From positions 30 to 64,029 of the forward strand of contig NZ_DAIUJO010000003.1 of the NCBI RefSeq assembly GCF_036848755.1: a stretch of DNA of 64,000 nt, in the 5' to 3' direction. Both the position numbers and the translations under genes were made by a program. This DNA comes from Sinomonas sp. GTDB lineage: Bacteria > Actinomycetota > Actinomycetes > Actinomycetales > Micrococcaceae. A model generated the notes under the pieces. It searched no databases and had not been told where the DNA came from. It was given only the letters and a program-made list of their open reading frames with translations. Positions 6,484 through 30,752 of the stretch are shown one piece after another. How positions within the stretch are numbered: the stretch's first letter is position 1; the number at the start of each line of letters is the position of its first letter.

Positions 6484-7134
6484 TTGAACCCGGCCGTCCG
6501 CCCTCAGCCCGTCGAACAGGACCGCGACCACGTCGTCGGCGAGCTTCTCCGGCGTGAGCGATCCTCCCGGGCGGTACCACTCGACGATGGAGTTGATCGT
6601 GCCGAAGAGGAGTCGCGACACGGTGCGGGGGTCGACGTCGCTCCGCACCGTGCCCTCGGCCCGTGCCTCCTCGATGAGCTCGGCGACCTGCCGGTCGAAG
6701 CCGCGACGCCGCTCGAGCGCGCGCCGCTCGGTCTCGGTGTTGCCCCGCAGGCGGAGGAGAAGCGTCACGAACGGCAGCCGCTCGGTGAGGACGCTGACGG
6801 TCGAGCGCACGACGAACTCTAGCCGGTGTTCGGCCGTGCCCTCCTTGGTCTCGGGGGCCTCCCACACGGACTCGAGGCCGCCGAGTGCCTGCTCGAGCGC
6901 GAGCGCGAGCAGGTCCTCCTTCGAGGGAACGTGGTGGTAGATGGCTGACTTCGAGATCCCGAGGTTCTCCGCGAGGATCCCCATCGACGTCGCGTCGTAG
7001 CCATGCCGGTTGAAGACCTCGACGGCGACGTTCAGCACGGACTGCTGGTCGTAGCCGGGCCGCCCCCGGCGCCCGGACGGCGCCGGTCCGGGGGCATCGG
7101 GGCCGGGGGTCTTGGTTGCGGCGGGGGAAGGCAT
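6475..7134 (-). CDS. TetR-family regulator, probably the phenylacetate regulon repressor (PaaR-like)
   Basis: It has the HTH 'VLNVAVEVFNRHGYDATSMGILAENLGISKSAIYHHVPSKEDLL'. It lies immediately downstream of paaK on the same strand. Confidence 0.75.
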   Translation of the reverse strand: MPSPAATKTPGPDAPGPAPSGRRGRPGYDQQSVLNVAVEVFNRHGYDATSMGILAENLGISKSAIYHHVPSKEDLLALALEQALGGLESVWEAPETKEGTAEHRLEFVVRSTVSVLTERLPFVTLLLRLRGNTETERRALERRRGFDRQVAELIEEARAEGTVRSDVDPRTVSRLLFGTINSIVEWYRPGGSLTPEKLADDVVAVLFDGLRADGRVQEG

Positions 7135-7156
7135 GGGTTCGAGTCTAGGCCGAGGC

Positions 7157-8497
7157 TCAGCCCTGACGGCGGAGATCGTAGATGCGGCGCAGCTTTCCGT
7201 TCGAGCGCTCGAGCGATCCGGGCTCGACGACGTCGATGCGGCACGAGGAACCGATGTGGACCTTGATCTGCTGGCGAAGTGCCGCCGCCGCCGAGGTGCG
7301 CTGCTCCGCCGTCGTGCCCTCCCGGGGCTCGATCTTCACGGTGAGCTCGTCCATGCGGTGGGGGCGGGTGATTTCGAGCTGGAAGTGTGGGCTCAGCTCC
7401 GGGATCCGCAGCGCGATCTCCTCGATCTGGGACGGGAAGAGGTTCACGCCGCGGAGGATGATCATGTCGTCGCTGCGGCCTGAGATGCGGCCCATGCGGC
7501 GATGGCCGGGGCGCGTCGTGCCGGGCTGGAGGGTCGTGAGGTCCTTCGTCCGGTAGCGGATGATCGGCAAGGCCTGCTTCGTGAGGGACGTGAAGACGAG
7601 CTCCCCCGTCTCACCGTCGGCCTTGGTCTTGGTGAGGTCGAATGGGTCGACAATCTCGGGGCGGAAGTGGTCCTCCCAGATGTGGCTCCCGTCCTGGGTC
7701 TCGACCGACTCGCCGGCGACGCCCGGGCCCATCACCTCCGAGAGGCCATAGATGTCGCAGGCCTTGAGGTCGAACATCTCCTCGAGTTCGCGGCGCATCT
7801 CCTGGGTCCAGGGCTCGGCCCCGAGCACTGCGAACTTGAGCGAGGTCGCCCGCGGGTCAAGCCCCTTGTGGATCATCGAGTCGCCGATGGTGAGGAGATA
7901 GGTCGGCGTGCAGAGGATCGCGTCGGGAGCGAAGTCGCCGATGAGCTGGATCTGCTTCTCGGTTTGACCGCCGGACATCGGGATGACCGTCGCGCCGAGC
8001 TTCTCCGCGCCTGCGTGGGCGCCGAGTCCGCCGGTGAAGAGCCCATAGCCGTAGGCGTTGTGCACCTTCATGCCGGGGCGGACGCCGGACGCGCGGAGGC
8101 AGCGGGCCACGAGCGTGGCCCAGTTGTCGAGGTCGTGCTTGGTGTAGCCGACGACGGTCGGGCGGCCGGTCGTGCCCGAGCTCGCGTGGATGCGGGCCAC
8201 TTGGTCCATCGGGACGGCGAACATGCCGAAGGGGTACTCCTTGCGGAGGTCTTCCTTGGTCGTGAAGGGAAAGTTGGACAGGTCGGCGAGCTCCTTGAGG
8301 TCGTTCGGGTGCACCCCGGCCTCGTCGAACTTGCGCTTGTAGAGCGGAACCCTGCGGTATGCGTAGTCCAAGGTCTCCTGGAGGCGTGTGAGCTGGAGCG
8401 ACTCGATCTGGTCGCGCGACATCGTCTCCTCGGCGTCGAGGATCGCGGGGCCGAACGCTGAGGTTTGGGGGGACTCTGGGGCGGCGGTCTGGGTCAC
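7157..8497 (-). CDS. paaK: Phenylacetate-CoA ligase
   Basis: It contains 'LQLTRLQETLDYAYRRVPLYKRKFDEAGVHPNDLKELADLSNFPFTTKEDLR' and 'IHASSGTTGRPTVV'. Confidence 0.92.
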   Translation of the reverse strand: MTQTAAPESPQTSAFGPAILDAEETMSRDQIESLQLTRLQETLDYAYRRVPLYKRKFDEAGVHPNDLKELADLSNFPFTTKEDLRKEYPFGMFAVPMDQVARIHASSGTTGRPTVVGYTKHDLDNWATLVARCLRASGVRPGMKVHNAYGYGLFTGGLGAHAGAEKLGATVIPMSGGQTEKQIQLIGDFAPDAILCTPTYLLTIGDSMIHKGLDPRATSLKFAVLGAEPWTQEMRRELEEMFDLKACDIYGLSEVMGPGVAGESVETQDGSHIWEDHFRPEIVDPFDLTKTKADGETGELVFTSLTKQALPIIRYRTKDLTTLQPGTTRPGHRRMGRISGRSDDMIILRGVNLFPSQIEEIALRIPELSPHFQLEITRPHRMDELTVKIEPREGTTAEQRTSAAAALRQQIKVHIGSSCRIDVVEPGSLERSNGKLRRIYDLRRQG

Positions 8498-8530
8498 GGT
8501 GTCTCTCTCCGTAGTGGCCAGGGGATGGGG

Positions 8531-8596
8531 TGGGGGTTGCGGCAGCTTGGTGGGGGTTGCGGCAGCTTGGTGGGGGTTGCGGCAGCTTGGTGGGGT
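8531..8596. repeat. Tandem repeat: 20-bp unit TGGGGGTTGCGGCAGCTTGG, three perfect copies plus a partial fourth
   Basis: The repeat was read directly. It fills most of the paaI-paaK intergenic spacer. Confidence 0.9.
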
Positions 8597-8600
8597 GGCG

Positions 8601-9137
8601 TCAGCGCTGGGGGATCGTGCGCGAGCGGCCGCGGAATTCGGCGATGAGGCGGCCGGAGGTGTCTGCGTCTGGTGACGCGAAGACCTGGACGTCGTAGAGC
8701 CCGCTGCGCCCGGCTTGGGCGCGGCGGGCCGCGACGGCCGTGATGCGCTCGCCGACGTGGGCGGGAGCGAGGAATTTGACGCCGACGCCGGCGGCGACGG
8801 TGATCGTGCCGGCCTGGCCCTCGTCGGGCGTGTGGGGGTTGCAGGCGAGGGCGAAGGCTGAGTCCGCGATGGCGAAGATCATTCCGCCATGGGCGATGCC
8901 GAATCCGTTGAGCATCTCGCGCCGAAGGGTGGTCGCGACCGTGGCGCTGCCGTCGCCGAGGGCGAGCACTTCGAGGCCCATCCATTCGGTCGCGTAGTCG
9001 TCGGTAAGGATCGGGTGGGCCAAGGATTCCGGGTGGGCCAAGGATTCCGGGTGGCCGGGCGACTCGGGGCGCACCGGGGTCTCCGGTTGGTCCAGCTCGG
9101 CCTGGGTCTCCGTCTCGGCAGGAGCAGCGTCGCTCAT
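8601..9137 (-). CDS. paaI: Hydroxyphenylacetyl-CoA thioesterase (hotdog fold) with an acidic, Pro-rich repeat N-terminal extension
   Basis: It contains 'MLNGFGIAHGGMIFAIADSAFALACN'. I chose ATG 9137 (MSDAAP, GAGGTA upstream) over the TTG at 9152. An 18-bp in-frame repeat lies at 9013-9055 (HPESLA). Confidence 0.85.
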   Translation of the reverse strand: MSDAAPAETETQAELDQPETPVRPESPGHPESLAHPESLAHPILTDDYATEWMGLEVLALGDGSATVATTLRREMLNGFGIAHGGMIFAIADSAFALACNPHTPDEGQAGTITVAAGVGVKFLAPAHVGERITAVAARRAQAGRSGLYDVQVFASPDADTSGRLIAEFRGRSRTIPQR

Positions 9138-14665: not shown

Positions 14666-16840
14666 CTAGGCGATCGGCTCGCGGGCCCCGAGCCCGTCCG
14701 CGATGAACGCGTAGTCCCATGCGCGGTCCTTCCACTCCTCGTACCGTCCCGAGGCGCCGCCGTGCCCGGCGACCATCTCGGTCTTGAGCACGATCGGCTG
14801 CCCGCTCGTCGAGGCCTCCCGCAGCGCCTGCACCCACTTCGCCGGCTCGACGTACAGCACTCGCGTGTCGTTGAAGGAGGTCACCGCCGCGACCCGGGGG
14901 TAGGGGGCCGGGCGCACGTTCTCGTACGGCGTGTACGACTTCATGTATGCGTACACCTCCGGATCCTCGATCGGGTTGCCCCACTCCTCCCACTCGAGGG
15001 CCGAGAGCGGCAGCTCGGGGTTGAGGATCGTCGTGAGGGCGTCCACGAACGGGACCTCCGCGACGGCCACGGCGTACTTCTCGGGCGCGAGGTTGAGCAC
15101 GGCCCCGATCAGCAGGCCGCCCGCAGATCCTCCCATGCAGCCGATCCGGGCCGGATCTGCCCAGCCCGACGAGACGACCCAGTCCGTCGCGGCGACGAAG
15201 TCGCTGAACGTGTTCTTCTTGCGCAGCTTCTTGCCGTCCTCGTACCACCGGCGGCCGAGCTCGCCGCCGCCCCGGATGTGGGCGATCACGAACACGATGC
15301 CACGGTCGAGGAGGCTCAGCCGTGCGATCCCGAACGCAGGATCCATGCTGACCTCGTAGGAGCCGTAGCCGTAGACGAGGGCCGGGTTCGTCCCGTCTGG
15401 ATGCACCGACGCGTGCCGCAGGATCGACAGCGGGACGTGAGCCCCGTCGTCGGCCGTGGCCCACGCGCGCTCGGCGACGTAGTCGCTGGGGTCGTAGCCC
15501 CCGAGCACGGGCGTCTCCTTCCGCAGGAGCAGTTCGCCGCTCGCCAGGACGTAGTCGTAGATCCGCGGTGGGGTGAAGAACGAGGTGTAGCGGACGCGCA
15601 CGACGGGTGAGCGGTAGTCCGAGGAGCTTGCCGCGGCCGTGTAGAGCTCCTCGCCGAACGCGGGCTCCGCGAACGACGGCGCTCCGCCGCCCAGGACGTC
15701 GTCGAGCGTGGCGAAGCGGACGGTTTCGATCGTGTTGCGCCGCAGCGAGAGGAGGAGATGGGTCGAGGTGACGTCGGCGCCTTCGATCTTGACGGCGTCG
15801 TCGTGGTCGACGACGGTGCGCCACTCCTGCTCGGCCAGCGGCTTCGCGAACTCGGTGAGGGGCGCTACGGAGACCATGTTGTTGAAGGCCTGCCCCTTTC
15901 CCCTTCCCTCGCCGGAGCCCTCGGGACCGCCGTTGTGCACGAGCAGGACGTGGGCCGCGCCGCCGTGCTCGAAGACCTCGGCGCTGTGCAGAATGCGTTC
16001 GCCGCGGGGGACGAGGACGGTGAGCTCGGCTGCGGGGTCCATGAGGTCGAGGCACCGAGTCTCGCTGTACTCCGAGTTGCCGATGCTGACGAGCAGCCAT
16101 CGGCGATCGGACGAGAGGTCGATCGACGTCCACTGCGCCACGTCGTCCTCCTCGTACAGCACCTCGTCCCGGTCGACGGGCGTGCCGAGCGTGTGGACAC
16201 GGACCTGGAACGGCCGCCAGGACTCGTCTGCCACGACGTAGAAGAGGCGGCGTCCGTCGGGCGAGAACTCGAGTCCGTAGAAGACGCTATCGATCACTTC
16301 GGGGAGGTGCTCGCCCGTGCGCAGGTCCTTGATCCGCAGCGTGAACGTCTCGTCGCCCGTGTGGTCCACCGCGTACGCGTAGAGGTGCCCATCGCGAGTG
16401 AGCGCGGCCCCGCCCAGGGCGAAGAAGGGGTGCCCCTCCGCCTCGGCGTTCCCGTCCAGGAGCACCTGCTCGCCCTCGAGGGCGACCCCGGGGACCAGGG
16501 CGGGCGGCGTCCAGGTGTCGAGCTCCGCCTCCACGCGGCAGTAGACGGGATACTGGCTGCCCTCGACGGTGCGGGAGTAGTACCACCAGTCGTCGAGCCG
16601 GCTCGGGACCGAGAGGTCCGTTTCCTGGGTGCGGCGCTTGATCTCGTCGAAGATGGCGTCGCGGAGGGGCTGCTGATCCTCGGTGATGCGCTCGGTGTAC
16701 GCGTTCTCCGCTTCGAGGTGCCCCACGACGTCCGGGCTGTCCTTGTCCCTCAGCCATTCGTACGGATCGACGAAGACGTCGCCGTGGCGCTCCCGGCGGG
16801 CAGGTACCTTGCGGGCGACAGGTGGCACATCAGCACTCAT
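14666..16840 (-). CDS. ptrB: S9A prolyl-oligopeptidase family peptidase, oligopeptidase B type
   Basis: It contains 'FVDPYEWLRDKDSPDVVGHLEAENAYTE' and the catalytic Ser motif 'GGSAGGLL'. Confidence 0.85.
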   Translation of the reverse strand: MSADVPPVARKVPARRERHGDVFVDPYEWLRDKDSPDVVGHLEAENAYTERITEDQQPLRDAIFDEIKRRTQETDLSVPSRLDDWWYYSRTVEGSQYPVYCRVEAELDTWTPPALVPGVALEGEQVLLDGNAEAEGHPFFALGGAALTRDGHLYAYAVDHTGDETFTLRIKDLRTGEHLPEVIDSVFYGLEFSPDGRRLFYVVADESWRPFQVRVHTLGTPVDRDEVLYEEDDVAQWTSIDLSSDRRWLLVSIGNSEYSETRCLDLMDPAAELTVLVPRGERILHSAEVFEHGGAAHVLLVHNGGPEGSGEGRGKGQAFNNMVSVAPLTEFAKPLAEQEWRTVVDHDDAVKIEGADVTSTHLLLSLRRNTIETVRFATLDDVLGGGAPSFAEPAFGEELYTAAASSSDYRSPVVRVRYTSFFTPPRIYDYVLASGELLLRKETPVLGGYDPSDYVAERAWATADDGAHVPLSILRHASVHPDGTNPALVYGYGSYEVSMDPAFGIARLSLLDRGIVFVIAHIRGGGELGRRWYEDGKKLRKKNTFSDFVAATDWVVSSGWADPARIGCMGGSAGGLLIGAVLNLAPEKYAVAVAEVPFVDALTTILNPELPLSALEWEEWGNPIEDPEVYAYMKSYTPYENVRPAPYPRVAAVTSFNDTRVLYVEPAKWVQALREASTSGQPIVLKTEMVAGHGGASGRYEEWKDRAWDYAFIADGLGAREPIA

Positions 16841-16940: not shown

Positions 16941-18044
16941 TCAGTTGCCGTTTGCGAGACCGTTCGCGTCGACGTACTGGGGGACAGTGCCCTGCGCCAT
17001 TGCCGTGGCGAGCGCCGCCGTGGCCGCTTGATTCACGAGCACGATCGATTGGCCGTCCGTCGACCAGCCCGTCCCGTTGGTCGGAAGCGTGAACGTGATG
17101 AGGTCCTTCGGCCGCACTTTGACGAGCTCAACCCCGAGGGAAGCCACGGCCGACGCAGTGAAGCCCGAATCAACCGTCAGATACGGCGAGAACTCGTTGA
17201 CCACGTTGGCGAGCGTGACCGGATTCGCGAGCGTCTGCGGAGTGGCGATCTTCGAGGCGAGGGCCTTCATGAAGGTCTGCTGGTCCCGCACCCGCTGGTA
17301 GTCGCCGTCGGCGAACGCGTAGCGTTCGCGCACGAACGCGAGCGCCTGCTCGCCGTTCATCGTCTGCGGCCCGGCGTTGAAGTGGATGGTGGAGGTCTGG
17401 CCGGCTGTGAACGCCTTCGGGACGTTCACGGTCACGCCGCCGACGGCGTCGGTGAGCCCCTTGAACCCCGCGAAGTCCACGAAGACCACGTGGTCGAGGC
17501 GCTGCCCGAGCAGGGATTCGACGGTCTGCACCATGAGCGGCACGCCCCCGAACGCGAGTCCGGCGTTGATCTTGGCGGAGCCGTGACCGGGGATGGGGAC
17601 CCAGAGGTCGCGCATGATCGAGATGACGTAGACCTGCTGCCGGTCCGCCGGGATGTGCACGAGCATCATCGTGTCGGAGCGCTGGTCGGACGGGGCACCG
17701 GACTCTGCGGTCGCGCCCGTTGCCCCGCGGCTGTCGGATCCGACGAGCAGGATGTTCACTGGGGTCTTGCCGTCCGTCCCCGGACGGGGTTCGGAAGGAC
17801 GGGACGATTCCTCAGGGAACGCGTTGGGGATCTTCTTGGTGTTCGTATCGAAGCTCTGGGAGAGACTCCCGAGGTACACGATGGCGGCGACTGCCGCGAG
17901 CACGACGACGAGCAGCGCACCCAGCAGGACGGCCGCCGCCGTGCGCTTCCTCTTCCTCCGCGGCCGGGACCGACTCGCCGCCGAGGCTGACGTGCGGGAA
18001 GCATCGGGCGCTTGGACGGCGGGCTCACTGTCGTCGGTGGTCAC
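16941..18044 (-). CDS. LytR-CpsA-Psr (LCP) family cell-wall glycopolymer ligase
   Basis: It contains 'NILLVGSDSRG...SDTMMLVHIPADRQQVYVISIMRDLWVPIPGHGSAKINAGLAFGG'. I chose GTG 18044, preceded by GAAGGAGG, over the ORF-track start at 18188. It has an N-terminal TM segment. Confidence 0.85.
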   Translation of the reverse strand: MTTDDSEPAVQAPDASRTSASAASRSRPRRKRKRTAAAVLLGALLVVVLAAVAAIVYLGSLSQSFDTNTKKIPNAFPEESSRPSEPRPGTDGKTPVNILLVGSDSRGATGATAESGAPSDQRSDTMMLVHIPADRQQVYVISIMRDLWVPIPGHGSAKINAGLAFGGVPLMVQTVESLLGQRLDHVVFVDFAGFKGLTDAVGGVTVNVPKAFTAGQTSTIHFNAGPQTMNGEQALAFVRERYAFADGDYQRVRDQQTFMKALASKIATPQTLANPVTLANVVNEFSPYLTVDSGFTASAVASLGVELVKVRPKDLITFTLPTNGTGWSTDGQSIVLVNQAATAALATAMAQGTVPQYVDANGLANGN

Positions 18045-18134: not shown

Positions 18135-18428
18135 ATGATGCCGATCTGGCACAGGAATGAGCTCGTCGCCGAGGTCCTCGGCGAGCAAGGCGAACGGGTC
18201 GCGCTGCTCAATCTGCGCGCGAATCGGCCCGTCGTCCTGAGGGGTTCGGCGGCGGTCATCTGGTCGCTCATCGACGGGGTGCGCTGTGACAGGGACATAC
18301 TCGCCGCGCTGCGTGAAGAGTATGGGACCGAGGCCCCGCCAGATCTCGAGGTGCAGCTCGCTGCGTTCCTCTGCCAGCTCGCCGAGCTCGGGCTCGTCGA
18401 GCCGCCAGTGCCGGAGTCAGCGCCATGA
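18135..18428 (+). CDS. PqqD-family protein (RiPP-recognition-element-like peptide-binding protein)
   Basis: It contains 'VVLRGSAAVIWSLIDGVRCDRDILAALREEYGTEAPPDLEVQLAAFLCQLAELGLV'. The start is ATG 18135/18138, after GGAAGGGA. Its stop overlaps the next start (ATGA). Confidence 0.75.
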   Translation: MMPIWHRNELVAEVLGEQGERVALLNLRANRPVVLRGSAAVIWSLIDGVRCDRDILAALREEYGTEAPPDLEVQLAAFLCQLAELGLVEPPVPESAP

Positions 18429-19642
18429 GGCTCAGGATCCTCGGCGCCTCCCTCACGGTCGTCTTCGAGGGCCGCGTGAGCCCTGCCCAGCGGGCCTTGC
18501 TGCGCCGAGCCTGGTCGCGGTGCCTCGAGGACGGCGAGGGCACAGCGTCTGCTGAGAGGGGCGACGGCGACTGCACCGGCGGCGACAGCCCCGGCGGCGA
18601 CGGCATCGGCGGCGACGGCATCGGCGGCGCTGTTCCGTTCCGTGCGCGCATCCTGACCGGTTCCGGCGTCGTCCCGGTCGCGGGGGGAACGTTTGCGCGC
18701 TTTGCCGCGGAGCTCACGAGCGCCCTGACCTTCGCAGCGATCGAGCGGCGCAGCGGCGAACTGCTCATGCTGCACGCTTCGGGCCTTGCAGATCCGGGCA
18801 CGGGCCGCACCGTTGCGCTCGTGGGGCCCTCCGGAGTGGGCAAGACGACCGCGACCCGGGCACTCGCCAACGAGCTGGGCTACGTGAGCGACGAGACGGT
18901 CGGCGTCGAGCCGTCGGGCGCGGTCGTCCCGTACGCCAAGCCGCTCTCACTCATCGTCGAGGAGCCGCCCGCACCCAAACGCCAGCTCGGCCCGGACGAG
19001 CTCGGTCTCCGCAGGGCGCCCTCGGAGGGGAGGCTCGGCGCCGTCGTCCTGCTCGAGCGACGCGCAAGCCGACCTGGGGGGCGGGCGGAGGTGCGACGGC
19101 TCGGCCACGCGGAGGCGATCGTGGGCCTCGCGCCGCACACCTCGTCGATCGGAAAGCTGCGCGCCCCACTCCAGCAGCTCTGCCGGATGCTCGACGCGTG
19201 CGGCGGGGCCGTCCGGGCGGTCTACAGCGAGGCCGACGAGCTCGCGGGCCTCATCCCAGGCCTCCTCGCCCGGGCCGCCGTCGCGGGCGGGTGGGAACCC
19301 GCCGTCGTCCCCGACCGAAGGGCGGACGACGGCGCCCTCGCGCCAGTGGATCAGCCGCCAGCGATCCTGCCGCGCGGGTACCTGCGGCGGGGCGACGTCG
19401 TCGACGCCGTCGAGATCGCGATCCCCGATGGTGGGAGCGACCTGCTCGTCATGGTGGGCCAGCAGGTCGTCCGGCTCGGCGGCATCGCCCCGGCGATCTG
19501 GCGTGCGCTGCGCGCGCCGGCCCGGATCGAAGCCCTCGCGGAGCGGATTGCGCCGGAGGTCGGCCTCCCGCCCGGTTACGCCGGGGCGCTCTCCCACGCA
19601 GTCGAGGAACTCAGTAACTACGGGGTGCTCCTACGGAGCTGA
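18425..19642 (+). CDS. HPr-kinase-like P-loop kinase fused to a C-terminal PqqD-like domain
   Basis: The block 'LMLHASGLADPGTGRTVALVGPSGVGKTTATRALANELGYVSDE' resembles the HprK/P C-terminal P-loop block. The C-terminal ~85 aa ('VVRLGGIAPAIWRALRAPARIEALAERIA...AVEELSNYGVL') look PqqD-like. A GGDxx pentapeptide repeat is encoded at nt 18578-18622. Confidence 0.7.
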   Translation: MRLRILGASLTVVFEGRVSPAQRALLRRAWSRCLEDGEGTASAERGDGDCTGGDSPGGDGIGGDGIGGAVPFRARILTGSGVVPVAGGTFARFAAELTSALTFAAIERRSGELLMLHASGLADPGTGRTVALVGPSGVGKTTATRALANELGYVSDETVGVEPSGAVVPYAKPLSLIVEEPPAPKRQLGPDELGLRRAPSEGRLGAVVLLERRASRPGGRAEVRRLGHAEAIVGLAPHTSSIGKLRAPLQQLCRMLDACGGAVRAVYSEADELAGLIPGLLARAAVAGGWEPAVVPDRRADDGALAPVDQPPAILPRGYLRRGDVVDAVEIAIPDGGSDLLVMVGQQVVRLGGIAPAIWRALRAPARIEALAERIAPEVGLPPGYAGALSHAVEELSNYGVLLRS

Positions 19643-19658: not shown

Positions 19659-21329
19659 ATGAACCTTGTGCAAAATTCACTCCCAGTCGACAAGACCGCG
19701 CCAGACAAGGCTGTGTCCGACCCCGCTGTGTCCGACCCCGCTGTGTCAGGCACCGCCGTGTCAGGCACCGCCGTGTCAGGCACCGCCGTGTTCGACCCAG
19801 CCGCGTTCGACCCCGCCGCGGACGGGCGGGGCATGGCCCTCGCGGACTACCTCTTGGTCGCCCGCAGGTATTGGCTCGGGATCCTGCTCTTCGTCGCCGT
19901 CGCCACGTCGGGGGCGTTCGGCTGGTACCTCGTGCAGCCTCGGGTCTACGAGGCCCAGTCGAACGGGATGGTCGTCACCGGCGGCTCGGATAACCTGAAC
20001 CTCTCCCTCGCGGGGGACAACCTCTCGAAGTCCAAGGCGAAGAGCTACCGCTCGCTCGCCGAGTCGCTCCTCGTCGCCGAGCGCGTGGTCAAGGCACTCG
20101 GCATCAGTGCGTCCCCCCAAGCGGTCGCGGGCACCGTCAAGGTCGTGGTCCCGGTCGATTCTGCGGAGCTGCAGGTGACGGCGACTTCGTCGGACCCCGA
20201 GCAGGCCAAGGAAGTCGCGGATGCGTGGGTCTCGGCGCTCGCAGCGCAGGTCTACGAGATCGAGAAATCGATGTCGAGCGCGGGAGCGGAGCCCGCCACG
20301 AAGGTGGTGCCGCTTGCGAAGGCAACGGTCCCGACTGCGCCGGTCTCGCCGAACCTCCGGCTCGCCCTCGGTGCGGGGGCGGCGGGCGGCCTGGCGCTCG
20401 GACTCGGCTACGCCCTCGTGCGCAATCTGCTGGACCGCAGGATCAGGGCTGCTGCAGAGATCGAGCGGCGCTTCCGCGTGCCGGTCATCGGCACGCTCCC
20501 ACGGGACAGGCGCCTTGTCAGCGAGACCCGCATCCTGGACGTCCACGGCACGGGTGCCGGGCACGCGATGGGCGAGGCGCTGCGAGAACTGCGGACGAAT
20601 CTGCACTTCATCGACGTCGACAGTCCGCCGCGGGTGCTCCTCGTGACGAGTTCGCTGCCATCCGAAGGCAAGTCCACCGTCATTGGCAATCTTGCCGCAA
20701 CCATCGCTGCCGCGGGTGAGGGCGTCATCGTCGTCGACGCAGACCTGCGCCGGCCGACGGCGCACCAGGTCTTCGGAGTGACGGGGGACGTGGGCGTGAC
20801 GGACGTCCTCACGGGCCGAGCCACGATCGACGAGGTCCTGCAGGACTGGGGCCCGATGCCGCAGCTCAAGGTGCTCGCGGCAGGTCGCATCCCGCCGAAC
20901 CCGTCGGAGCTGCTCGGCTCGCGCGCGATGCAGCACCTCCTCAAGGAGCTATCCCAACGGGCCGTCGTGCTCATCGACACTCCGCCGCTCCTGCCGGTCA
21001 CCGACGCCGCGGTCCTCTCTCGCGCGGCGGACGGGACGCTCGTCGTCGCCCGCGCGCGGAAGACGACGACGGACGGCCTCCAGCGCGCGCTCGGGAACTT
21101 GGCGCGCGTGCGAGGACGGGTCCTCGGGGTCATCCTGAACTGCGTCGCCACCAAGGGACCGGACACGTACAGCTACGGCTACTACGGCGCGTACTCGAGC
21201 AGGCCCGAGCGGCGGAGGGGCCGGAACGGTGCGCGTACGAGCGCCAACAGCGGCTCAGAGGGCGGGGCTCAGGTCTCGCCTGCGCCTGAGCCTGTCCCGG
21301 CATTCAGGGGAAGGCGTTCGGCGAGCTGA
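19659..21329 (+). CDS. Polysaccharide-biosynthesis tyrosine autokinase (Wzz chain-length domain fused to a CpsD/CapB BY-kinase)
   Basis: Walker A is 'SLPSEGKSTVIGNLA', A' is 'VIVVDADLRRP', B is 'VVLIDTPPLL', and the C-terminal Tyr cluster is 'YSYGYYGAYSS'. The canonical-looking N-terminus 'MALADYLLVARRYW' starts at 19833, so the 58-aa repeat extension from 19659 is uncertain. Confidence 0.88.
   Translation: MNLVQNSLPVDKTAPDKAVSDPAVSDPAVSGTAVSGTAVSGTAVFDPAAFDPAADGRGMALADYLLVARRYWLGILLFVAVATSGAFGWYLVQPRVYEAQSNGMVVTGGSDNLNLSLAGDNLSKSKAKSYRSLAESLLVAERVVKALGISASPQAVAGTVKVVVPVDSAELQVTATSSDPEQAKEVADAWVSALAAQVYEIEKSMSSAGAEPATKVVPLAKATVPTAPVSPNLRLALGAGAAGGLALGLGYALVRNLLDRRIRAAAEIERRFRVPVIGTLPRDRRLVSETRILDVHGTGAGHAMGEALRELRTNLHFIDVDSPPRVLLVTSSLPSEGKSTVIGNLAATIAAAGEGVIVVDADLRRPTAHQVFGVTGDVGVTDVLTGRATIDEVLQDWGPMPQLKVLAAGRIPPNPSELLGSRAMQHLLKELSQRAVVLIDTPPLLPVTDAAVLSRAADGTLVVARARKTTTDGLQRALGNLARVRGRVLGVILNCVATKGPDTYSYGYYGAYSSRPERRRGRNGARTSANSGSEGGAQVSPAPEPVPAFRGRRSAS
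19710..19820 (+). repeat. About seven tandem 15-bp units (in frame: AVSDP x2, AVSGT x3, AVFDP/AAFDP)
   Basis: The units were read directly: gctgtgtccgacccc x2, gcYgtgtcaggcacc x3, gccgYgttcgaccca/c x2. Confidence 0.9.
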
Positions 21330-21964
21330 CGCCGTTCCGCCTCCCTCAGCATCGCTCGGCTCTCGCCCGGGGCGCCGCGGCGGCGCCGGCGGGGGAGAGC
21401 GGCCCGAATCAGGGCGCTGACCGGCGGGAGGAGCTCCTCGACCATGCGCTCGTATGCCGGGGCATCCAGCCCGAACGGATCGGCGACGTCATTGAGGGAA
21501 GGATCGTCGAGGCGGACTTCGTGGCGGATCCTGTTGCCGTCGGCCACGTACCGCCGCCACGCATCCGGCACGGTTTCGCGGGTCGAGGGCCCTGGCAGGA
21601 TCTCGACGATGCGAGCGAACTCGCGCAGGGTGAACGTGCGTTTGAGGGCGGAGGGGGAGAGGGCGAGGACTGGGCTGCGGTGATCTTCGGCGAGGATCAG
21701 CACGAGGTCCGCCTCCGTGATGTGCCCCTGCGTGAGCTGCCGGGCTTCGAAGGCGTCGAGGCTCGAGCCGAGCCGGAGGGCGATCTCGGCCGATCTGGGA
21801 TGGGCCGGCTGGCCCGCAAGCGCTCTGACGCCCGCGCTCGTGACGGCAAACACCCCTGGGGCGGCCTCGTCGAGGCCGGACTGGAGCAGGCGCTCGGCCA
21901 GCGGCGACCGGCAGATGTTCCCGGTGCAGACGGCGAGGATGCGGAAGGGGGTTCCGTCGCTCAT
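21269..21964 (-). CDS. Low-molecular-weight protein-tyrosine phosphatase with an Arg-rich C-terminal tail
   Basis: It has the active-site motif 'ILAVCTGNICRSPLAERLL' (CX5R-S). Its 3' end overlaps the BY-kinase 3' end by 61 bp. Confidence 0.88.
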   Translation of the reverse strand: MSDGTPFRILAVCTGNICRSPLAERLLQSGLDEAAPGVFAVTSAGVRALAGQPAHPRSAEIALRLGSSLDAFEARQLTQGHITEADLVLILAEDHRSPVLALSPSALKRTFTLREFARIVEILPGPSTRETVPDAWRRYVADGNRIRHEVRLDDPSLNDVADPFGLDAPAYERMVEELLPPVSALIRAALPRRRRRGAPGESRAMLREAERRQLAERLPLNAGTGSGAGET

Positions 21965-21968
21965 CGCA

Positions 21969-22700
21969 TCACGCTAGCACCCCTACCCGCCAGACTGGCC
22001 AGACCTTGAGTGTCACACGCCCGACCACCGCGGAAGCGGGGACGGTCCGCATGCAGGGCTCGGGCGGGGACTGGCTCCGGCAGGCCAACGTCGAGTCGGC
22101 GGACGCCGAGCGATGGTCCCCGAGGAGCACGAGTTCGCCCGATGGAACGGTGAAGGCGCTGAAGCAGCGGGCGGAGCGCGGCGTCGTCGTGCAGTCGAGC
22201 CGTCCGGGCACGAAGGGGAGGTTGAGCGTGACGTAGGGCTCGTCGATCCCATGGCCATTGCGCTCGAGGCGCCCCTCGGCGTCGCAGCACGCTATGGTCT
22301 GCCCGCCCTGCGCAGCGATCCGCTTGACGAGATAGCTCTGATTCGATGGGCCGATGCCGGTGAGGTCGCCGAAACCCCTGGCCAGAGCCGGAAGCGCACC
22401 GTCGCGGCGACCGCCCACGTCGTCGTCTGCCTTTCCGCCGTCCCATCCGGGAGGCCGGGCCACGACGACGACGTCGCCCACGTGGGGCGAGTTGCCGAGC
22501 AGCGTCGACAGGCGATCTGCCAGGATCCAGTCCCCACCGCTTGGGCTGCCGAGGAGAGTCGGTTCCATGGAGGCGGTGGGGACGCGATACAGCTTCACGA
22601 GGTAGGCCTGAACGAGCGAAACGACGAGGAGGGCCACGAGGGCGTGGGCGGCGAAGTGCAGCCAAGCGGGCACGCTTCTGCGCTGCGGGCGGGGAGTCAT
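21969..22700 (-). CDS. lepB: Signal peptidase I (S26)
   Basis: It has an N-terminal TM segment, the Ser box 'VPTASMEPTL', the Lys box 'YLVKRIAAQGG', and 'LLGDHRSASADS'. It lies 4 bp upstream of the PTP gene. Confidence 0.85.
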   Translation of the reverse strand: MTPRPQRRSVPAWLHFAAHALVALLVVSLVQAYLVKLYRVPTASMEPTLLGSPSGGDWILADRLSTLLGNSPHVGDVVVVARPPGWDGGKADDDVGGRRDGALPALARGFGDLTGIGPSNQSYLVKRIAAQGGQTIACCDAEGRLERNGHGIDEPYVTLNLPFVPGRLDCTTTPRSARCFSAFTVPSGELVLLGDHRSASADSTLACRSQSPPEPCMRTVPASAVVGRVTLKVWPVWRVGVLA

Positions 22701-29111: not shown

Positions 29112-30752
29112 ATGCAACTTCGATACACTCGTTCCATGATGGGGGCGCGGACAGTTGCGAGGGGGAGGGTTGCCGCGGCGACAGGTGCGGTGGTGGACGG
29201 GCGTGGCGGTTCTCACGGCGAGGATTGGCGCGACGCGTTCAATGGTCTGCTGGGCCGACGCGAGGGCCCGTCGACAGATGAGATCAATTCCTTCCTTGCC
29301 CGGCTCGCTCTCTGTGGCGGCCTGAAGGATCTCCCGGGTCCGGAGCTCATCGATCGGCTTGATGCGCTCGAGAGATTGAAGGCGGCCGCCTCGGGGGAGC
29401 AGGCGCGAGTCCAAGTCGCGTTCGCCGAGCTGTGCGAGGCGGGCATCGATCCGCGCGCCGCTGCCCTCGAGAGTGCGACGGGCCGAAGCGCCGCGAGGAC
29501 TCGCGAACGATCGGCCGCGGCTCAGATAGCACTCGCGCGGAAGGTGTCGCCGTCCCGTGGGGCAAGGCTTCTGGCGATGTCGAAGCGGCTCGTCGGCGAG
29601 ATGCCCCACACCTTTCAGGCCTTGGCAGCAGGTCGCCTCACCGAGGAGCGGGCGCTTTTCGTCGCCGAGGGGGTCGAAGTCCTCTCGGCTGGCGCGCGCT
29701 CTGCCGTGGACGAGGATCTGGCCGGCGATCCGCGGCGATTCGAAGGCTTGGGGGATCGCGGAGTCCAGAATGCTGTACGCGCCGCGGTGGATGCCATTGA
29801 CGACGGCGCGGGCCTCGCCCGTGTGCGCAAGGCCGAGCAGGAGCGAAGGGTCACGGTCAGACGCCTTCCAGATGCTATGGCCCAGCTCACGGCGATCCTC
29901 CCGGTTGCGCAGGCCATCGCGGTCGGAGGGGCCCTCAGGGCGGAAGGTGGGGCCGCGCGGGCGGCGGGGGATGGGCGGACCATGGGGCAGATCGCAGCCG
30001 ATACCCTGGTCGAGCGTGTGACTGGCCAGTCCCACGCCGATGCTGTGCCGCTTCGTGTCGGCCTCGTCATGACGAGTTCTTCTCTGTTCGAGGGTGGCCG
30101 AGAGCCGGCGTTGCTCCAGGGCTATGGGACAGTTGCGGCCGGCCAGGCTCGCGCGATGGTCGCGGCGTCGTCGGGTGGTGGGAGCACTTCGCCGTCGATC
30201 GGCGCTGTTGCATCGGCCGCTCGTCCTTCGGTGAGCGCCGTGCCCAGAGCTGTCGAGTCGGGTGCTCGTCCTTCGGTGAGCGCCGTGCCCAGCGCCGCTT
30301 CCCTCGCCGGGGTCTGGCTTCGTCGGCTCTATCTTGATCCGTCAACCGGTGAGCTCGCCGCCATGGACTCCAAGTCCCGCCGCTTCCCCCGTGCACTTGC
30401 GCAGTTCATCGAGACCAGGGACCAAGTCTGCCGTCGTCCCTACTGTGAGGCTCCAATCCGGCACATCGACCACGTGGTGCCCGTCGCGTCAGGCGGGGAG
30501 ACGAGCGTCGAGAACGGCCAAGGGCTGTGCGAGGCCTGCAATCACGCGAAAGAATCCCTCGGCTGGGAGCACGCGGTGGTGGGGAGTGAAGAACCGGACG
30601 GAACCCGGGGTGACATCCTGACGGTCACGCCTACCGGTCATGAATACTTCTCGCCGCCGCCGACCTTGCCGGGTGCGCTCCCACGGACCCTGCCGCGGGA
30701 AGGGAGGCTGCCCCTGGAAGGGAGGCCGCCCCGGGAGTGGCGGGTCAGCTGA
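29112..30752 (+). CDS. DUF222 / HNH-endonuclease domain protein (REP13E12-like family)
   Basis: The N-terminus is DUF222-like ('ELIDRLDALERLKAAASGEQARVQVAFAE'). The HNH block is 'CRRPYCEAPIRHIDHVVPVASGGETSVENGQGLCEACNHAKE'. An internal 29-bp segment is duplicated at 45-bp spacing (30219-30247 and 30264-30292). Confidence 0.85.
   Translation: MQLRYTRSMMGARTVARGRVAAATGAVVDGRGGSHGEDWRDAFNGLLGRREGPSTDEINSFLARLALCGGLKDLPGPELIDRLDALERLKAAASGEQARVQVAFAELCEAGIDPRAAALESATGRSAARTRERSAAAQIALARKVSPSRGARLLAMSKRLVGEMPHTFQALAAGRLTEERALFVAEGVEVLSAGARSAVDEDLAGDPRRFEGLGDRGVQNAVRAAVDAIDDGAGLARVRKAEQERRVTVRRLPDAMAQLTAILPVAQAIAVGGALRAEGGAARAAGDGRTMGQIAADTLVERVTGQSHADAVPLRVGLVMTSSSLFEGGREPALLQGYGTVAAGQARAMVAASSGGGSTSPSIGAVASAARPSVSAVPRAVESGARPSVSAVPSAASLAGVWLRRLYLDPSTGELAAMDSKSRRFPRALAQFIETRDQVCRRPYCEAPIRHIDHVVPVASGGETSVENGQGLCEACNHAKESLGWEHAVVGSEEPDGTRGDILTVTPTGHEYFSPPPTLPGALPRTLPREGRLPLEGRPPREWRVS

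What the first reader, a model, noticed from the sequence alone, without database searches (positions are those of the whole stretch)
18135..19642. Orphan RRE-kinase module: a PqqD-like protein coupled to an HprK-like kinase-PqqD fusion, inside a BY-kinase / LMW-PTP / LCP / LepB envelope locus
Seen in the sequence: a 97-aa PqqD-like ORF (18135-18428) has a stop that overlaps (ATGA) the start of a 405-aa ORF. The core of that ORF, 'LMLHASGLADPGTGRTVALVGPSGVGKTTATRALA', looks like the HPr kinase/phosphorylase P-loop block, and its last ~85 aa look like a second PqqD-like domain. A Wzz-fused BY tyrosine autokinase follows 16 bp downstream. A lepB/LMW-PTP operon converges on it, and an LCP ligase gene diverges upstream.

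Established knowledge: PqqD-like domains are RiPP recognition elements that bind leader peptides. HprK-like kinases phosphorylate precursor peptides in paeninodin-type lasso clusters. From memory (not checked here), PqqD plus HprK-related-kinase pairs have been catalogued as an uncharacterised 'HPr-rel' system in exopolysaccharide loci of other phyla.

Inference: there is no lasso cyclase, B2 protease, radical-SAM enzyme, exporter or stand-alone short precursor ORF within several kb. The pair is therefore unlikely to make a classical RiPP. A two-RRE, peptide- or tail-directed Ser/Thr kinase feeding into tyrosine-kinase control of cell-wall glycopolymer attachment would, as far as I know, be undescribed in actinobacteria.
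Basis: partly seen in the sequence, partly recalled or inferred. Interest (0 to 1): 0.75.

Follow-up and report, generated by a model that had tools for sequence, protein, structure and literature searches.

The report
RRE-guided HprK-like kinase beside tyrosine kinase
Two coupled genes in a Sinomonas-like actinobacterium encode a peptide-recognition protein and a serine-kinase-like enzyme carrying a second peptide-recognition domain; they belong to a large, unstudied family that is usually wired to polysaccharide tyrosine kinases and, in other genera, to a small secreted "client" protein that is missing here.

Summary
ORF1 (18135-18428) is a PqqD-family RRE (Pfam 44 bits; model matches lasso RRE TbiB1, TM 0.79/0.87). 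Its stop overlaps (ATGA) the start of ORF2 (18425-19642). ORF2 has an HprK/PEPCK-fold P-loop core with invariant His-Lys-Asp-Glu and a C-terminal second RRE (hhalign 92% to ORF1). A Wzz-fused BY-kinase follows 16 bp later. LCP, LMW-PTP and LepB flank the trio.

ORF2 is not a member of TIGR04352 (20.8 vs 200 bits) or of Pfam Hpr_kinase_C. It belongs to a large uncharacterised actinobacterial family: 373 species genomes and 1,059 clusters at E<=1e-30.

In 80 related loci the kinase sits near these genes:
- a BY-kinase in 72;
- NTP_transf_5 in 49;
- an often unannotated ~200-aa gene with an RR..G.AW..P leader and a variable body in 59;
- signal peptidase I in 24.

This resembles the RRE + HprK-like kinase + NTP-transferase + signal-peptidase module of Bacillota "linear polyphosphorylated peptides" (2026).

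The window and all eight other Sinomonas loci lack the client, and the window also lacks NTP_transf_5. The substrate here is therefore unknown. The "orphan" reading holds for this locus. The tail-directed BY-kinase idea is neither shown nor excluded.

Verdict: a new variant of a known kind, of moderately high interest.

The parts
18135..18428 (+). ORF1: a discrete PqqD-family RiPP recognition element (RRE), 97 aa, translationally coupled to ORF2 through an ATGA overlap.
   Evidence: Pfam PqqD 44.1 bits. PDB profile: TbiB1 E 4e-6, PbaB1 0.007, LppB 0.05. AF2 pLDDT 83 with topology beta-beta-beta-beta-alpha3. Foldseek: TbiB1 TM 0.79/0.87, TfuB1, PqqD. dN/dS 0.28-0.36.
18425..19642 (+). ORF2: a 405-aa three-domain protein with an N-terminal alpha/beta domain, an HprK/PEPCK-fold P-loop kinase core and a C-terminal RRE.
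   Evidence: AF2 pLDDT 89, pTM 0.87. The 50 best Foldseek matches listed are all PEPCK or HprK/P chains. 81 homologues; 1,059 clusters at E<=1e-30. dN/dS 0.35-0.38.
18554..18629 (+). Lineage-specific Gly/Asp-rich disordered insert in the N-domain of ORF2 (aa 44-67), encoded by 4.3 copies of a 15-bp tandem repeat.
   Evidence: pLDDT <50 for residues 44-67. The region is gapped in most homologues. TRF array 18565-18629.
18755..19324 (+). Kinase core (about aa 111-300). His117 is at 18773-18775, the Walker A motif GPSGVGKTT at 18824-18850 (Lys140), and Asp156-Glu157 at 18890-18895.
   Evidence: These residues are invariant in 28 homologues. TIGR04352 aligns to aa 106-176. Lasso tailoring kinases need His-Lys-Asp-Asp (PMC9266682).
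19382..19639 (+). Second RRE, fused to the kinase (aa 320-405).
   Evidence: hhalign of A1 against A3: 92.4%, E 5e-7, covering ORF1 residues 5-92. TbiB1 hit E 2.2e-4. DSSP shows beta3 + alpha3. 6 of 28 homologues hit Pfam PqqD, the best at 4e-13.
19659..21329 (+). Wzz-fused BY tyrosine autokinase, 16 bp downstream of ORF2. Its N-terminal tail carries 7 copies of a 15-bp repeat (19713-19818). It has a C-terminal Tyr cluster and ends in ..PEPVPAFRGRRSAS.
   Evidence: TIGR01007 163.6 bits. GNVR and AAA_31 domains. TRF. A BY-kinase lies within 10 kb of the kinase in 72/80 loci and within 300 bp in 49.
21269..21964 (-). LMW phosphotyrosine phosphatase. Its 3' end overlaps the 3' end of the BY-kinase gene by 61 bp (convergent).
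   Evidence: Pfam LMWPc 83.6 bits. Translation. Near the kinase in 28/80 loci.
21969..22700 (-). Bacterial-type (Ser/Lys) signal peptidase I, located 4 bp upstream of the phosphatase gene.
   Evidence: Peptidase_S26 79 bits. TIGR02227 77.8 vs 47. SMEPT and KR boxes. Within 3 kb of the kinase in 23/80 loci and adjacent in 11.
16941..18044 (-). LCP (LytR-CpsA-Psr) ligase gene, divergent from ORF1 across a 90-bp intergenic region. This is context and may not belong to the module.
   Evidence: Pfam LytR_cpsA_psr 157.6 bits. GTG start at 18044 with an AAGGAG box. Present in only 15/80 related loci.

Best explanation
ORF1 and ORF2 form an RRE-guided peptide/protein serine-kinase module that is an accessory part of a BY-kinase polysaccharide locus.

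Shown:
- ORF1 is a lasso-B1-like RRE.
- ORF2 is an HprK/PEPCK-fold P-loop enzyme. It keeps the His-Lys-Asp-(Asp/Glu) catalytic set of lasso-peptide tailoring kinases and carries its own RRE.
- The two genes are translationally coupled and lie 16 bp upstream of a BY-kinase gene.
- The family is large and usually operonic with a BY-kinase.
- In most genera the family is also operonic with a ~200-aa protein that has a conserved RR..G-x-A-W-x-x-P leader and a hypervariable beta-rich body. An NTP_transf_5 nucleotidyltransferase and a signal peptidase I often accompany them.

Inferred mechanism:
1. One or both RREs capture the W-x-x-P-x-[I/V] stretch of the client's leader in the cytoplasm. This stretch matches the [Y/W]xxPx[L/V/I] motif read by lasso and LPP RREs.
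2. The RREs present the client to the kinase, which phosphorylates a Ser, possibly repeatedly.
3. Where present, NTP_transf_5 extends the phosphate with a sugar or nucleotide.
4. The leader is removed by signal peptidase I on export.

This would be an actinobacterial analogue of the LppB/LppK/LppN/LppS pathway.

In this Sinomonas lineage the locus is stripped to PqqD-kinase-BY-kinase plus lepB-PTP and LCP. The client is therefore encoded elsewhere, or the kinase has been retained for a second target within the polysaccharide machinery.
For: Fold and motif. PMC9266682 gives the His-Lys-Asp-Asp requirement.

Family size: 373 genomes and 1,059 clusters at E<=1e-30.

Synteny within 10 kb in 80 loci:
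- BY-kinase 72, NTP_transf_5 49, Bac_transf 41 (Pfam identities).
- A discrete PqqD in about 55.
- A leader-type ORF in 59. About 60 of 77 HMM hits lie on the kinase strand within 600 bp.
- The leader alignment has invariant RR, G, AW and P.
- A client with the same leader lies next to the kinase even in Nocardioides.

[quoted passage not shown] Their precursors are 35-200 aa with a conserved leader and a variable C-terminus. The RREs read WxxP/YxxP, and a BY-kinase gene has an accession number close to lppB.

Sinomonas-specific points:
- ORF1's beta3/alpha1 segment (RPVVL.GSAAVIWSL.DG) is invariant among its 9 close homologues. Read by eye, it resembles the PqqD part of the Pseudarthrobacter-type protein P0119 (PVVLDGTAAAIWALIDG).
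- Sinomonas sp. P47F7 has the same core inside a full Wzx/Wzy cluster with NTP_transf_5.
- dN/dS is below 0.4.
Against: - No client ORF and no NTP_transf_5 gene occur in the 64-kb window. No client occurs in any of the eight other Sinomonas loci held (seven from the genome scan plus P47F7).
- 21 of 80 loci lack the client. The Rathayibacter-type loci lack both the client and a discrete PqqD, yet keep kinase and BY-kinase together.
- The same leader also heads small proteins in prophage regions that have no RRE or kinase nearby. It may be a general Tat-like export signal, and its match to the RRE motif may be coincidental.
- The signal peptidase here is bacterial-type, not SipW-type.
- No MsbA-type exporter is present.
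- The clients have no conserved C-terminal Ser, unlike paeninodin-type precursors.
- Binding and phosphorylation have not been tested. The kinase assignment rests on fold and motif only.
- The 80 loci are the best-scoring of 373 and are biased towards Micrococcaceae.
Confidence: 0.45

Rival explanations
1. The two RREs dock on a peptide segment of a protein in the locus, most plausibly the BY-kinase C-terminal tail around the Tyr cluster, or else the phosphatase or LCP. The kinase then phosphorylates Ser/Thr there and modulates Tyr autophosphorylation and so polysaccharide export or attachment.
For: - Kinase plus BY-kinase is the most persistent pair: 72/80 loci, with 49 within 300 bp.
- The pair persists in Sinomonas and Rathayibacter loci that have no client.
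- BY-kinases next to the kinase share a C-terminal ..P.P..RGRRSA(S) or ..GRRAR ending. Second BY-kinase copies in the same loci lack it.
- There is precedent for Ser phosphorylation beside the Tyr cluster of PtkA by PrkC (PMC4166321).
Against: - The Ser-rich N-tail is a lineage-specific repeat.
- The C-tail ending lacks a conserved Ser outside the Sinomonas and Paenarthrobacter types, and the shared ending may only reflect orthology.
- 8 of 80 loci have the kinase without a BY-kinase. Intrasporangiaceae and Allobranchiibius homologues sit in unrelated contexts.
- No known RRE binds a tail of a folded enzyme.
- HprK/P showed no interaction with other kinases in the B. subtilis two-hybrid assays.
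Confidence: 0.3
2. The RREs act as export-signal chaperones. They bind the Tat-like RR..AWxxP signal of secreted Ig-like proteins, as Tat proofreading chaperones do. The P-loop domain works as an ATPase or gate rather than as a modifying kinase.
For: The leader has an S-R-R-x-[VL]-[VL] n-region, a hydrophobic core and an A-x-A end. It also occurs outside the module, on prophage proteins. Signal peptidase I is often adjacent.
Against: The catalytic His and Asp-Glu of HprK-type phosphotransferases are invariant, which a simple ATPase would not need. The NTP_transf_5 partner points to chemistry on a phosphate. NCBIfam scans of four clients at E<=0.1 returned no Tat-signal family hit.
Confidence: 0.1
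3. The enzyme phosphorylates a non-protein substrate, such as a sugar, polyprenol-linked intermediate or polymer of the polysaccharide pathway. The RRE domains serve only as protein-protein adaptors to the machinery.
For: The best fold matches are PEPCK, a small-molecule kinase. The genomic setting is polysaccharide biosynthesis: Bac_transf, GT4, Wzy and UDP-glucose dehydrogenase.
Against: There are two RREs per module, each closest to leader-binding lasso RREs. Sequence-level affinity is to HprK-related and ScmC families that pair with PqqD-like proteins. A client ORF is operonic in 59/80 loci.
Confidence: 0.08
4. The pair serves, in trans, a classical lasso or other RiPP cluster located elsewhere in the genome. 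Alternatively, it is a decaying remnant.
For: ORF1's closest solved relatives are lasso B1 proteins. This locus has lost genes relative to Sinomonas sp. P47F7 and Arthrobacter sp. Leaf337.
Against: None of the Pfam-annotated loci (L083-L087) nor the recurrent neighbour families identified in the 80 loci includes a lasso cyclase or B2 protease. Both ORFs are intact, all catalytic residues are kept, and dN/dS is 0.28-0.38. PqqD-kinase synteny holds across 8 Sinomonas species; one of them, S. terricola (L012), lacks the BY-kinase.
Confidence: 0.05

Closest known systems
Linear polyphosphorylated peptide (LPP) clusters of Bacillota: LppB RRE, LppK HprK-like kinase, LppN NTP transferase, LppS SipW-like peptidase, LppD exporter (Popov et al., Nat Commun 2026, PMC13381572)
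   Same: Both have a discrete RRE plus an HprK-like kinase. Both are embedded in capsule/polysaccharide loci near a BY-kinase. In related actinobacterial loci there are also an NTP transferase, a signal peptidase I, and a 35-200-aa-class client with a conserved leader holding an aromatic-x-x-P-x-hydrophobic motif and a variable body.
   Different: Here the kinase carries a fused second RRE and an extra N-domain. The peptidase is bacterial-type (Ser/Lys), not archaeal SipW-type. There is no MsbA exporter. The leader is RR..G.AWxxP (Tat-like), not YxxPxVLxHQxIxFETxxS. The BY-kinase sits inside the operon. In this window the client and the NTP transferase are absent. Sequence similarity is very low (LppB E 0.05).
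Paeninodin-type lasso tailoring: PadeK/ThcoK/PsmK kinases with a B1 RRE and the PsmN nucleotidyltransferase
   Same: It is an HprK-family kinase with a catalytic His-Lys-Asp-acidic set. It has a leader-dependent peptide substrate, a WxxP leader motif, and a nucleotidyltransferase that decorates the phosphate.
   Different: No lasso cyclase or B2 protease is present anywhere in the loci. The clients have no conserved C-terminal Ser. The fourth catalytic residue is Glu, not Asp. The RRE is fused to the kinase.
NCBIfam 'HPr-rel-A system' (TIGR04352 HprK_rel_A, TIGR04353 PqqD_rel_X, TIGR04355 HprK_rel_B)
   Same: It pairs an HprK-related kinase with a PqqD-family chaperone. These are the best NCBIfam hits for both ORFs.
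   Different: The scores are far below the cut-offs (20.8 vs 200; 24.7 vs 35). The system is itself uncharacterised.
SynChlorMet cassette ScmC/ScmD (TIGR04249/TIGR04248; Pfam PF27840 'ScmC')
   Same: ScmC-like and PqqD-like proteins occur together. 9 of 28 family members weakly hit TIGR04249, and distant members carry a weak precomputed PF27840 hit.
   Different: The window protein has no PF27840 hit on record. There are no radical-SAM/SPASM partners. The phyla and the genomic context differ.
HPr kinase/phosphorylase and ATP-dependent PEP carboxykinase (PEPCK-like P-loop fold)
   Same: The fold of the core is shared (all 50 listed Foldseek matches). The LH.. + GxSGxGK[ST] + [AS]D[DE] motif order is also shared.
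   Different: There is no Pfam Hpr_kinase_C hit. TM-scores are modest (0.2-0.35 on the query). The protein has no HPr partner role and different flanking domains.

Membership tests
PqqD / RRE family (Pfam PF05402) | Score above the Pfam gathering threshold, plus the winged-helix beta3-alpha3 fold. | tested here: met
   ORF1 scores 44.1 bits against a threshold of 23.4. Fold matches to TbiB1, TfuB1 and PqqD have TM 0.67-0.87. ORF2 residues 320-405 are below threshold on their own (14.6 bits) but reach 92.4% by hhalign to ORF1.
PQQ biosynthesis PqqD (TIGR03859) | Equivalog score, plus pqqA/B/C/E neighbours. | tested here: not met
   The score is 18.4 bits against a cut-off of 46. No pqq genes were found in the window.
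HPr kinase/phosphorylase (Pfam Hpr_kinase_C) | Sequence match to the HprK C-terminal domain model. | tested here: not met
   ORF2 has no hit at E<=1. None of the 28 homologues hits at E<=0.01.
HPr kinase/phosphorylase (Pfam Hpr_kinase_C) | PEPCK-like P-loop fold. | tested here: met
   All 50 best Foldseek matches listed are PEPCK or HprK/P chains, E 1e-4 to 7e-3.
NCBIfam HPr-rel-A system (TIGR04352 / TIGR04353) | Scores above the curated cut-offs for the kinase A model and the PqqD_rel_X model. | tested here: not met
   ORF2 scores 20.8 vs 200 and ORF1 scores 24.7 vs 35. 25 of 28 homologues hit TIGR04352, but only weakly (best E 1.5e-6).
Lasso-peptide tailoring kinase (PadeK/ThcoK type) | Conserved catalytic His-Lys-Asp-Asp. 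| tested here: inconclusive
   H117, K140, D156 and E157 are invariant, so the fourth position is Glu. Equivalence was inferred from motif order and the TIGR04352 alignment, not from a structure-based alignment.
Lasso-peptide tailoring kinase (PadeK/ThcoK type) | Co-located lasso cyclase (C), B2 protease, and a precursor with a C-terminal Ser. | tested here: not met
   None was found in the window, among the recurrent neighbour families identified in the 80 related loci, or in loci L083-L087. Client C-termini are not Ser.
LPP biosynthetic cluster (PMC13381572) | A discrete RRE plus an HprK-like kinase in a capsule/polysaccharide locus. | tested here: met
   A BY-kinase, LMW-PTP and LCP are adjacent.
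LPP biosynthetic cluster (PMC13381572) | An archaeal-type (SipW-like) signal peptidase I acting as leader peptidase. | tested here: not met
   The peptidase is bacterial-type: TIGR02227 77.8 bits and Ser/Lys boxes.
LPP biosynthetic cluster (PMC13381572) | [quoted passage not shown] | tested here: not met
   tblastn with one NTP_transf_5 representative found nothing in the window at E<=1e-3. No MsbA-like exporter appeared in the Pfam scans of window ORFs. NTP_transf_5 is present in 49 of 80 related loci. No MsbA-like gene appeared among the neighbour families identified.
LPP biosynthetic cluster (PMC13381572) | A precursor with the YxxPxVLxHQxIxFETxxS leader. | tested here: not met
   The window has no client. 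Related loci carry a different leader, RR..G.AWxxP[IV].
LPP biosynthetic cluster (PMC13381572) | Serine (poly)phosphorylation of the precursor. | not testable with these tools
   This requires mass spectrometry of co-expressed proteins.
BY-kinase (Wzc-like, TIGR01007) | A score above the cut-off, a Wzz/GNVR N-domain and a C-terminal Tyr cluster. | tested here: met
   The score is 163.6 against 108. GNVR and AAA_31 domains are present. The tail reads YSYGYYGAY.

The most novel reading that the evidence does not exclude
The family is an actinobacterial protein-modification pathway. RRE-guided HprK-like kinases install phosphoserine, extended by NTP_transf_5, on small Ig-like secreted proteins so that these proteins become covalent acceptors or anchors for BY-kinase/Wzy-dependent polysaccharide. 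That would be a protein-anchored capsule. In Sinomonas the kinase would be re-targeted to the BY-kinase itself, giving a direct Ser-kinase input into tyrosine-kinase control.
Probability: 0.1. Interest if true: 0.85.

Novelty: new variant of a known kind. Interest (0 to 1): 0.62.

Why it matters
HprK-like kinases that work with RREs were until recently known only as lasso-peptide tailoring enzymes. In 2026 they were shown to define a separate class of phosphorylated linear peptides in Bacillota capsule loci, with unknown biological role.

This window shows that Actinomycetota have their own large version: at least 373 species and more than 1,000 sequence clusters. In this version the kinase carries a fused RRE and the BY-kinase sits inside the operon. 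The usual client is a ~200-aa leader-bearing protein that my composition-based gene caller missed, and no known protein family matches it.

If the model is right, it links RiPP-style leader recognition to protein-sized substrates and to polysaccharide tyrosine-kinase systems. It also gives a tractable route (Arthrobacter, Pseudarthrobacter) to the unanswered question of what these phosphorylated products do in capsule or biofilm biology.

The client-less Sinomonas locus is a natural experiment for asking whether the kinase has a second target in the polysaccharide machinery.

Tried and rejected
1. BY-kinase N-terminal tail as a conserved substrate: rejected. The AVSDP/AVSGT repeat is specific to this genome, and orthologues have tails of 10-25 aa.

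2. A hidden precursor in the window: none found.
- The intergenic gaps are too short.
- Regex and leader-HMM scans of all six frames of the window and of the eight other Sinomonas loci held (seven from the genome scan plus P47F7) found nothing; the best E-value in the window was 7.

3. The leader as a module-specific RiPP leader: weakened. A profile search starting from the leader found the same signal on small proteins in two prophage regions that have no RRE or kinase. That search returned only proteins of 112 aa or less, so it could not size the client family.

4. LepB as a SipW-like LPP peptidase: rejected. It is bacterial-type.

5. S9 prolyl oligopeptidase as a RiPP protease or lasso isopeptidase: dropped. 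It is a syntenic Micrococcaceae neighbour of LCP, present in only 11 of 80 loci.

6. Naming the clients: Pfam and NCBIfam gave nothing above threshold, only weak Ig-like hints.

7. The PDB sequence-profile search for the kinase core was swamped by generic P-loop/ABC hits. Only fold search was informative.

8. Zhu et al. 2016 (PMC4919450) is not held in the library, so the catalytic motif is cited through the review PMC9266682.

9. The promoter and terminator scan gave nothing useful in this 69% GC DNA.


Full report
**Organism and map**

The window is 69% G+C. The closest homologues of its proteins come from Sinomonas (Micrococcaceae).

Gene order around the finding:
- pta-ackA (+)
- S9 prolyl oligopeptidase (-)
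- LCP ligase, 16941-18044 (-)
- ORF1 PqqD, 18135-18428 (+)
- ORF2, 18425-19642 (+)
- Wzz-fused BY-kinase, 19659-21329 (+)
- LMW-PTP, 21269-21964 (-)
- LepB, 21969-22700 (-)
- paa genes (+)

**ORF1**

- It scores 44.1 bits on Pfam PqqD, above the gathering score of 23.4.
- A profile of ORF1 and its homologues finds lasso RRE TbiB1 first in the PDB (E 4e-6). Next come the paeninodin-type PbaB1, then LppB, PqqD and TfuB1.
- Its AF2 model (pLDDT 83) superposes on TbiB1 (TM 0.79/0.87) and TfuB1.
- ORF1 is therefore an RRE of the lasso-B1 kind. It is not a PQQ-pathway PqqD: TIGR03859 scores 18 against 46, and there are no pqq genes.

**ORF2**

- Sequence models see only a Walker A motif and a weak TIGR04352 (HprK-related kinase A) match at 20.8 bits. 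The cut-off is 200.
- With 27 homologues the AF2 model is confident (pLDDT 89, pTM 0.87).
- All 50 best Foldseek PDB matches listed are PEPCK or HprK/P chains. These are the two branches of the PEPCK-like P-loop fold.
- Invariant residues are His117, the GxSGxGKT loop (Lys140) and Asp156-Glu157. Lasso tailoring kinases depend on His-Lys-Asp-Asp (PMC9266682).
- Residues 320-405 form a beta3-alpha3 unit. It aligns to the whole of ORF1 by hhalign (92.4%, E 5e-7) and to TbiB1.
- Six of 28 homologues reach Pfam PqqD on their own.
- Residues 44-67 are a disordered Gly/Asp insert encoded by a 15-bp tandem repeat. Relatives lack it.
- The domain reading 'HprK-like kinase + second RRE' is therefore right. 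Membership of TIGR04352 or Pfam Hpr_kinase_C is not met.

**Family and context**

- Relatives occur in 373 species-representative genomes. They form 1,059 clusters (50% identity) at E<=1e-30.
- I analysed the 80 best loci, which are mostly Micrococcaceae and Microbacteriaceae, using tblastn and home-made HMMs.
- Within 10 kb of the kinase:

| Neighbour | Loci of 80 | Note |
|---|---|---|
| BY-kinase | 72 | 49 within 300 bp |
| NTP_transf_5 (PF14907) | 49 | |
| Bac_transf priming transferase | 41 | |
| LMW-PTP | 28 | |
| Signal peptidase I | 24 | 11 directly adjacent |
| LCP | 15 | |

- A discrete PqqD occurs in about 55 loci.

**An unexpected partner**

My composition-based gene caller missed an ORF of about 185-240 aa that lies immediately upstream of PqqD (Pseudarthrobacter and Arthrobacter) or immediately downstream of the kinase (Paenarthrobacter type).

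- Its N-terminus is conserved..LSEVLNAEVTSSEEGGFSRRRVVKGVAWSVPVIVTAIAAPAAAAS.. The invariant positions are RR, G, AW and P.
- The rest is hypervariable, Ser/Thr/Gly-rich and beta-rich, with only weak Ig-like hints.
- A leader HMM finds it in 59 of 80 loci. About 60 of 77 hits are on the kinase strand within 600 bp.
- A Nocardioides locus also has it.
- The stretch W-x-x-P-x-[I/V] matches the [Y/W]xxPx[L/V/I] motif that lasso and LPP RREs bind (PMC13381572).

**Comparison with what is known**

Popov et al. (Nat Commun 2026, PMC13381572) described 'linear polyphosphorylated peptide' clusters in Bacillota. These clusters:
- are embedded in capsule loci;
- have precursors of 35-200 aa with a conserved leader and variable C-termini;
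- lie near a BY-kinase, whose accession number is close to lppB.

Paeninodin-type lasso clusters use the same kinase and NTP-transferase pair. The actinobacterial family repeats this logic with different parts:
- a fused RRE on the kinase;
- the BY-kinase inside the operon;
- a bacterial-type peptidase;
- a Tat-like RR leader.

NCBIfam's uncharacterised HPr-rel-A system and the SynChlorMet ScmC/ScmD pair are further distant analogues. Pfam PF27840 is 'ScmC' and is recorded as a weak hit only on distant members. Three full-text searches found no paper on an actinobacterial system.

**This window specifically**

- The window and the seven Sinomonas loci from the genome scan lack the client and NTP_transf_5.
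- Sinomonas sp. P47F7 has the same core (LCP | PqqD-kinase-BY-kinase | PTP-LepB-Bac_transf). There it sits inside a full Wzx/Wzy cluster with NTP_transf_5, and still has no client.
- The window therefore holds the stripped core of a polysaccharide locus.
- The genes are not decaying. Catalytic residues are intact. dN/dS is 0.28-0.38 for ORF1 and ORF2, against 0.10-0.14 for the BY-kinase.
- ORF1's beta3/alpha1 segment is invariant among its 9 close homologues. By eye it resembles the PqqD part of a Pseudarthrobacter-type protein.

**Caveats**

- The same leader heads small proteins in two prophage regions that have no RRE or kinase. It may be a general export signal, and the motif match may be coincidental.
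- 21 of 80 loci lack a client.
- Rathayibacter-type loci keep only kinase + BY-kinase.
- Intrasporangiaceae homologues are instead coupled to an APH/fructosamine-kinase gene.
- An Allobranchiibius homologue is isolated.
The persistent adjacency, a shared C-terminal ..RGRRSA/..GRRAR ending and the PrkC-PtkA precedent all favour it. Its most obvious candidate tail, the N-terminal repeat, is lineage-specific.

**Verdict**

The best-supported mechanism is an RRE-guided Ser kinase acting on leader-bearing secreted proteins, built into BY-kinase polysaccharide loci (confidence 0.45). In Sinomonas the client would be either unlinked or replaced by a target within the machinery.

This is a new variant of a known kind, in a large and experimentally untouched family.

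Noticed in passing
window 18565-18629 and 19713-19818: Two neighbouring genes each carry an in-frame 15-bp tandem repeat. ORF2 has 4.3 copies (a Gly/Asp-rich insert) and the BY-kinase N-tail has 7.1 copies (AVSDP/AVSGT/AAFDP). Both are absent from the S. humi and S. susongensis orthologues, so they are recent expansions and may vary in length.
   Followed up: partly
L016-L064 (e.g. L022:9068-9628, L005:11330-11896, L058:8919-9626); L085:7141-7851: A family of ~185-240-aa ORFs with a conserved RR..G.AWxxP leader and a hypervariable beta-rich body lies next to PqqD or the kinase in 59 of 80 loci. A GC3-based gene caller missed many of them, and no Pfam or NCBIfam family matches. Some loci hold two or three copies (L056, L063, L073, L079).
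   Followed up: partly
L081:8001-8279 and L082:8001-8261: The same RR..GAAWSVPVIA..AAAS leader heads ~90-aa Cys-containing proteins (PIACT..DGT..LC). These are encoded in prophage early regions (M78/HTH repressor, ANT, YqaJ, HNH) of Microbacterium and Paeniglutamicibacter, with no RRE or kinase nearby.
   Followed up: partly
protein P0119: This 106-aa protein joins the client leader (MSEVLNAEV..AWSVPVIVTAIAAP) directly to the C-terminal two-thirds of PqqD. It looks like a deletion that removed the client body and the start of PqqD in one genome.
   Followed up: no
L086:7130-9182 and L087:7237-9716: In Intrasporangiaceae the kinase-RRE homologue overlaps or abuts the stop of an APH/fructosamine-kinase-family gene. 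No BY-kinase, PqqD or client is nearby, so this is a different wiring of the same enzyme. In L086 a chaplin-like repeat protein with an LAQTG sorting signal follows.
   Followed up: no
L053, L063, L072, L073, L079, L085 (e.g. L072:16343-17356, L085:6091-7113): A MauE-family membrane protein of about 340 aa recurs near the client genes in Microbacteriaceae and Nocardioides loci. Its role is unknown.
   Followed up: no
window 19659-21329; loci: BY-kinases adjacent to the kinase end in a conserved ..P.P..RGRRSA(S/G) or ..GRRA(R/K) motif after a variable linker. Second BY-kinase copies in the same loci end differently.
   Followed up: partly
window 29112-30752; L029/L033/L042/L045 around 7000-8900: An HNH endonuclease gene lies 7.5 kb downstream in the window. 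In several Arthrobacter loci a DUF222+HNH gene sits between the PTP/LCP block and the client-PqqD-kinase operon. This may mark a rearrangement hotspot.
   Followed up: no
window 14666-16840: An S9 prolyl oligopeptidase lies next to LCP. The pairing is conserved in several Micrococcaceae loci whether or not the kinase is adjacent, so it is probably unrelated housekeeping synteny.
   Followed up: partly
window 1-64000: No glycosyltransferase, Wzx/Wzy or priming transferase was found in the 64-kb window, even though a BY-kinase, LMW-PTP and LCP are present. Sinomonas sp. P47F7 has all of them around the same core (L084). This lineage seems to have lost or moved its polysaccharide synthesis genes while keeping the regulatory core.
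   Followed up: partly
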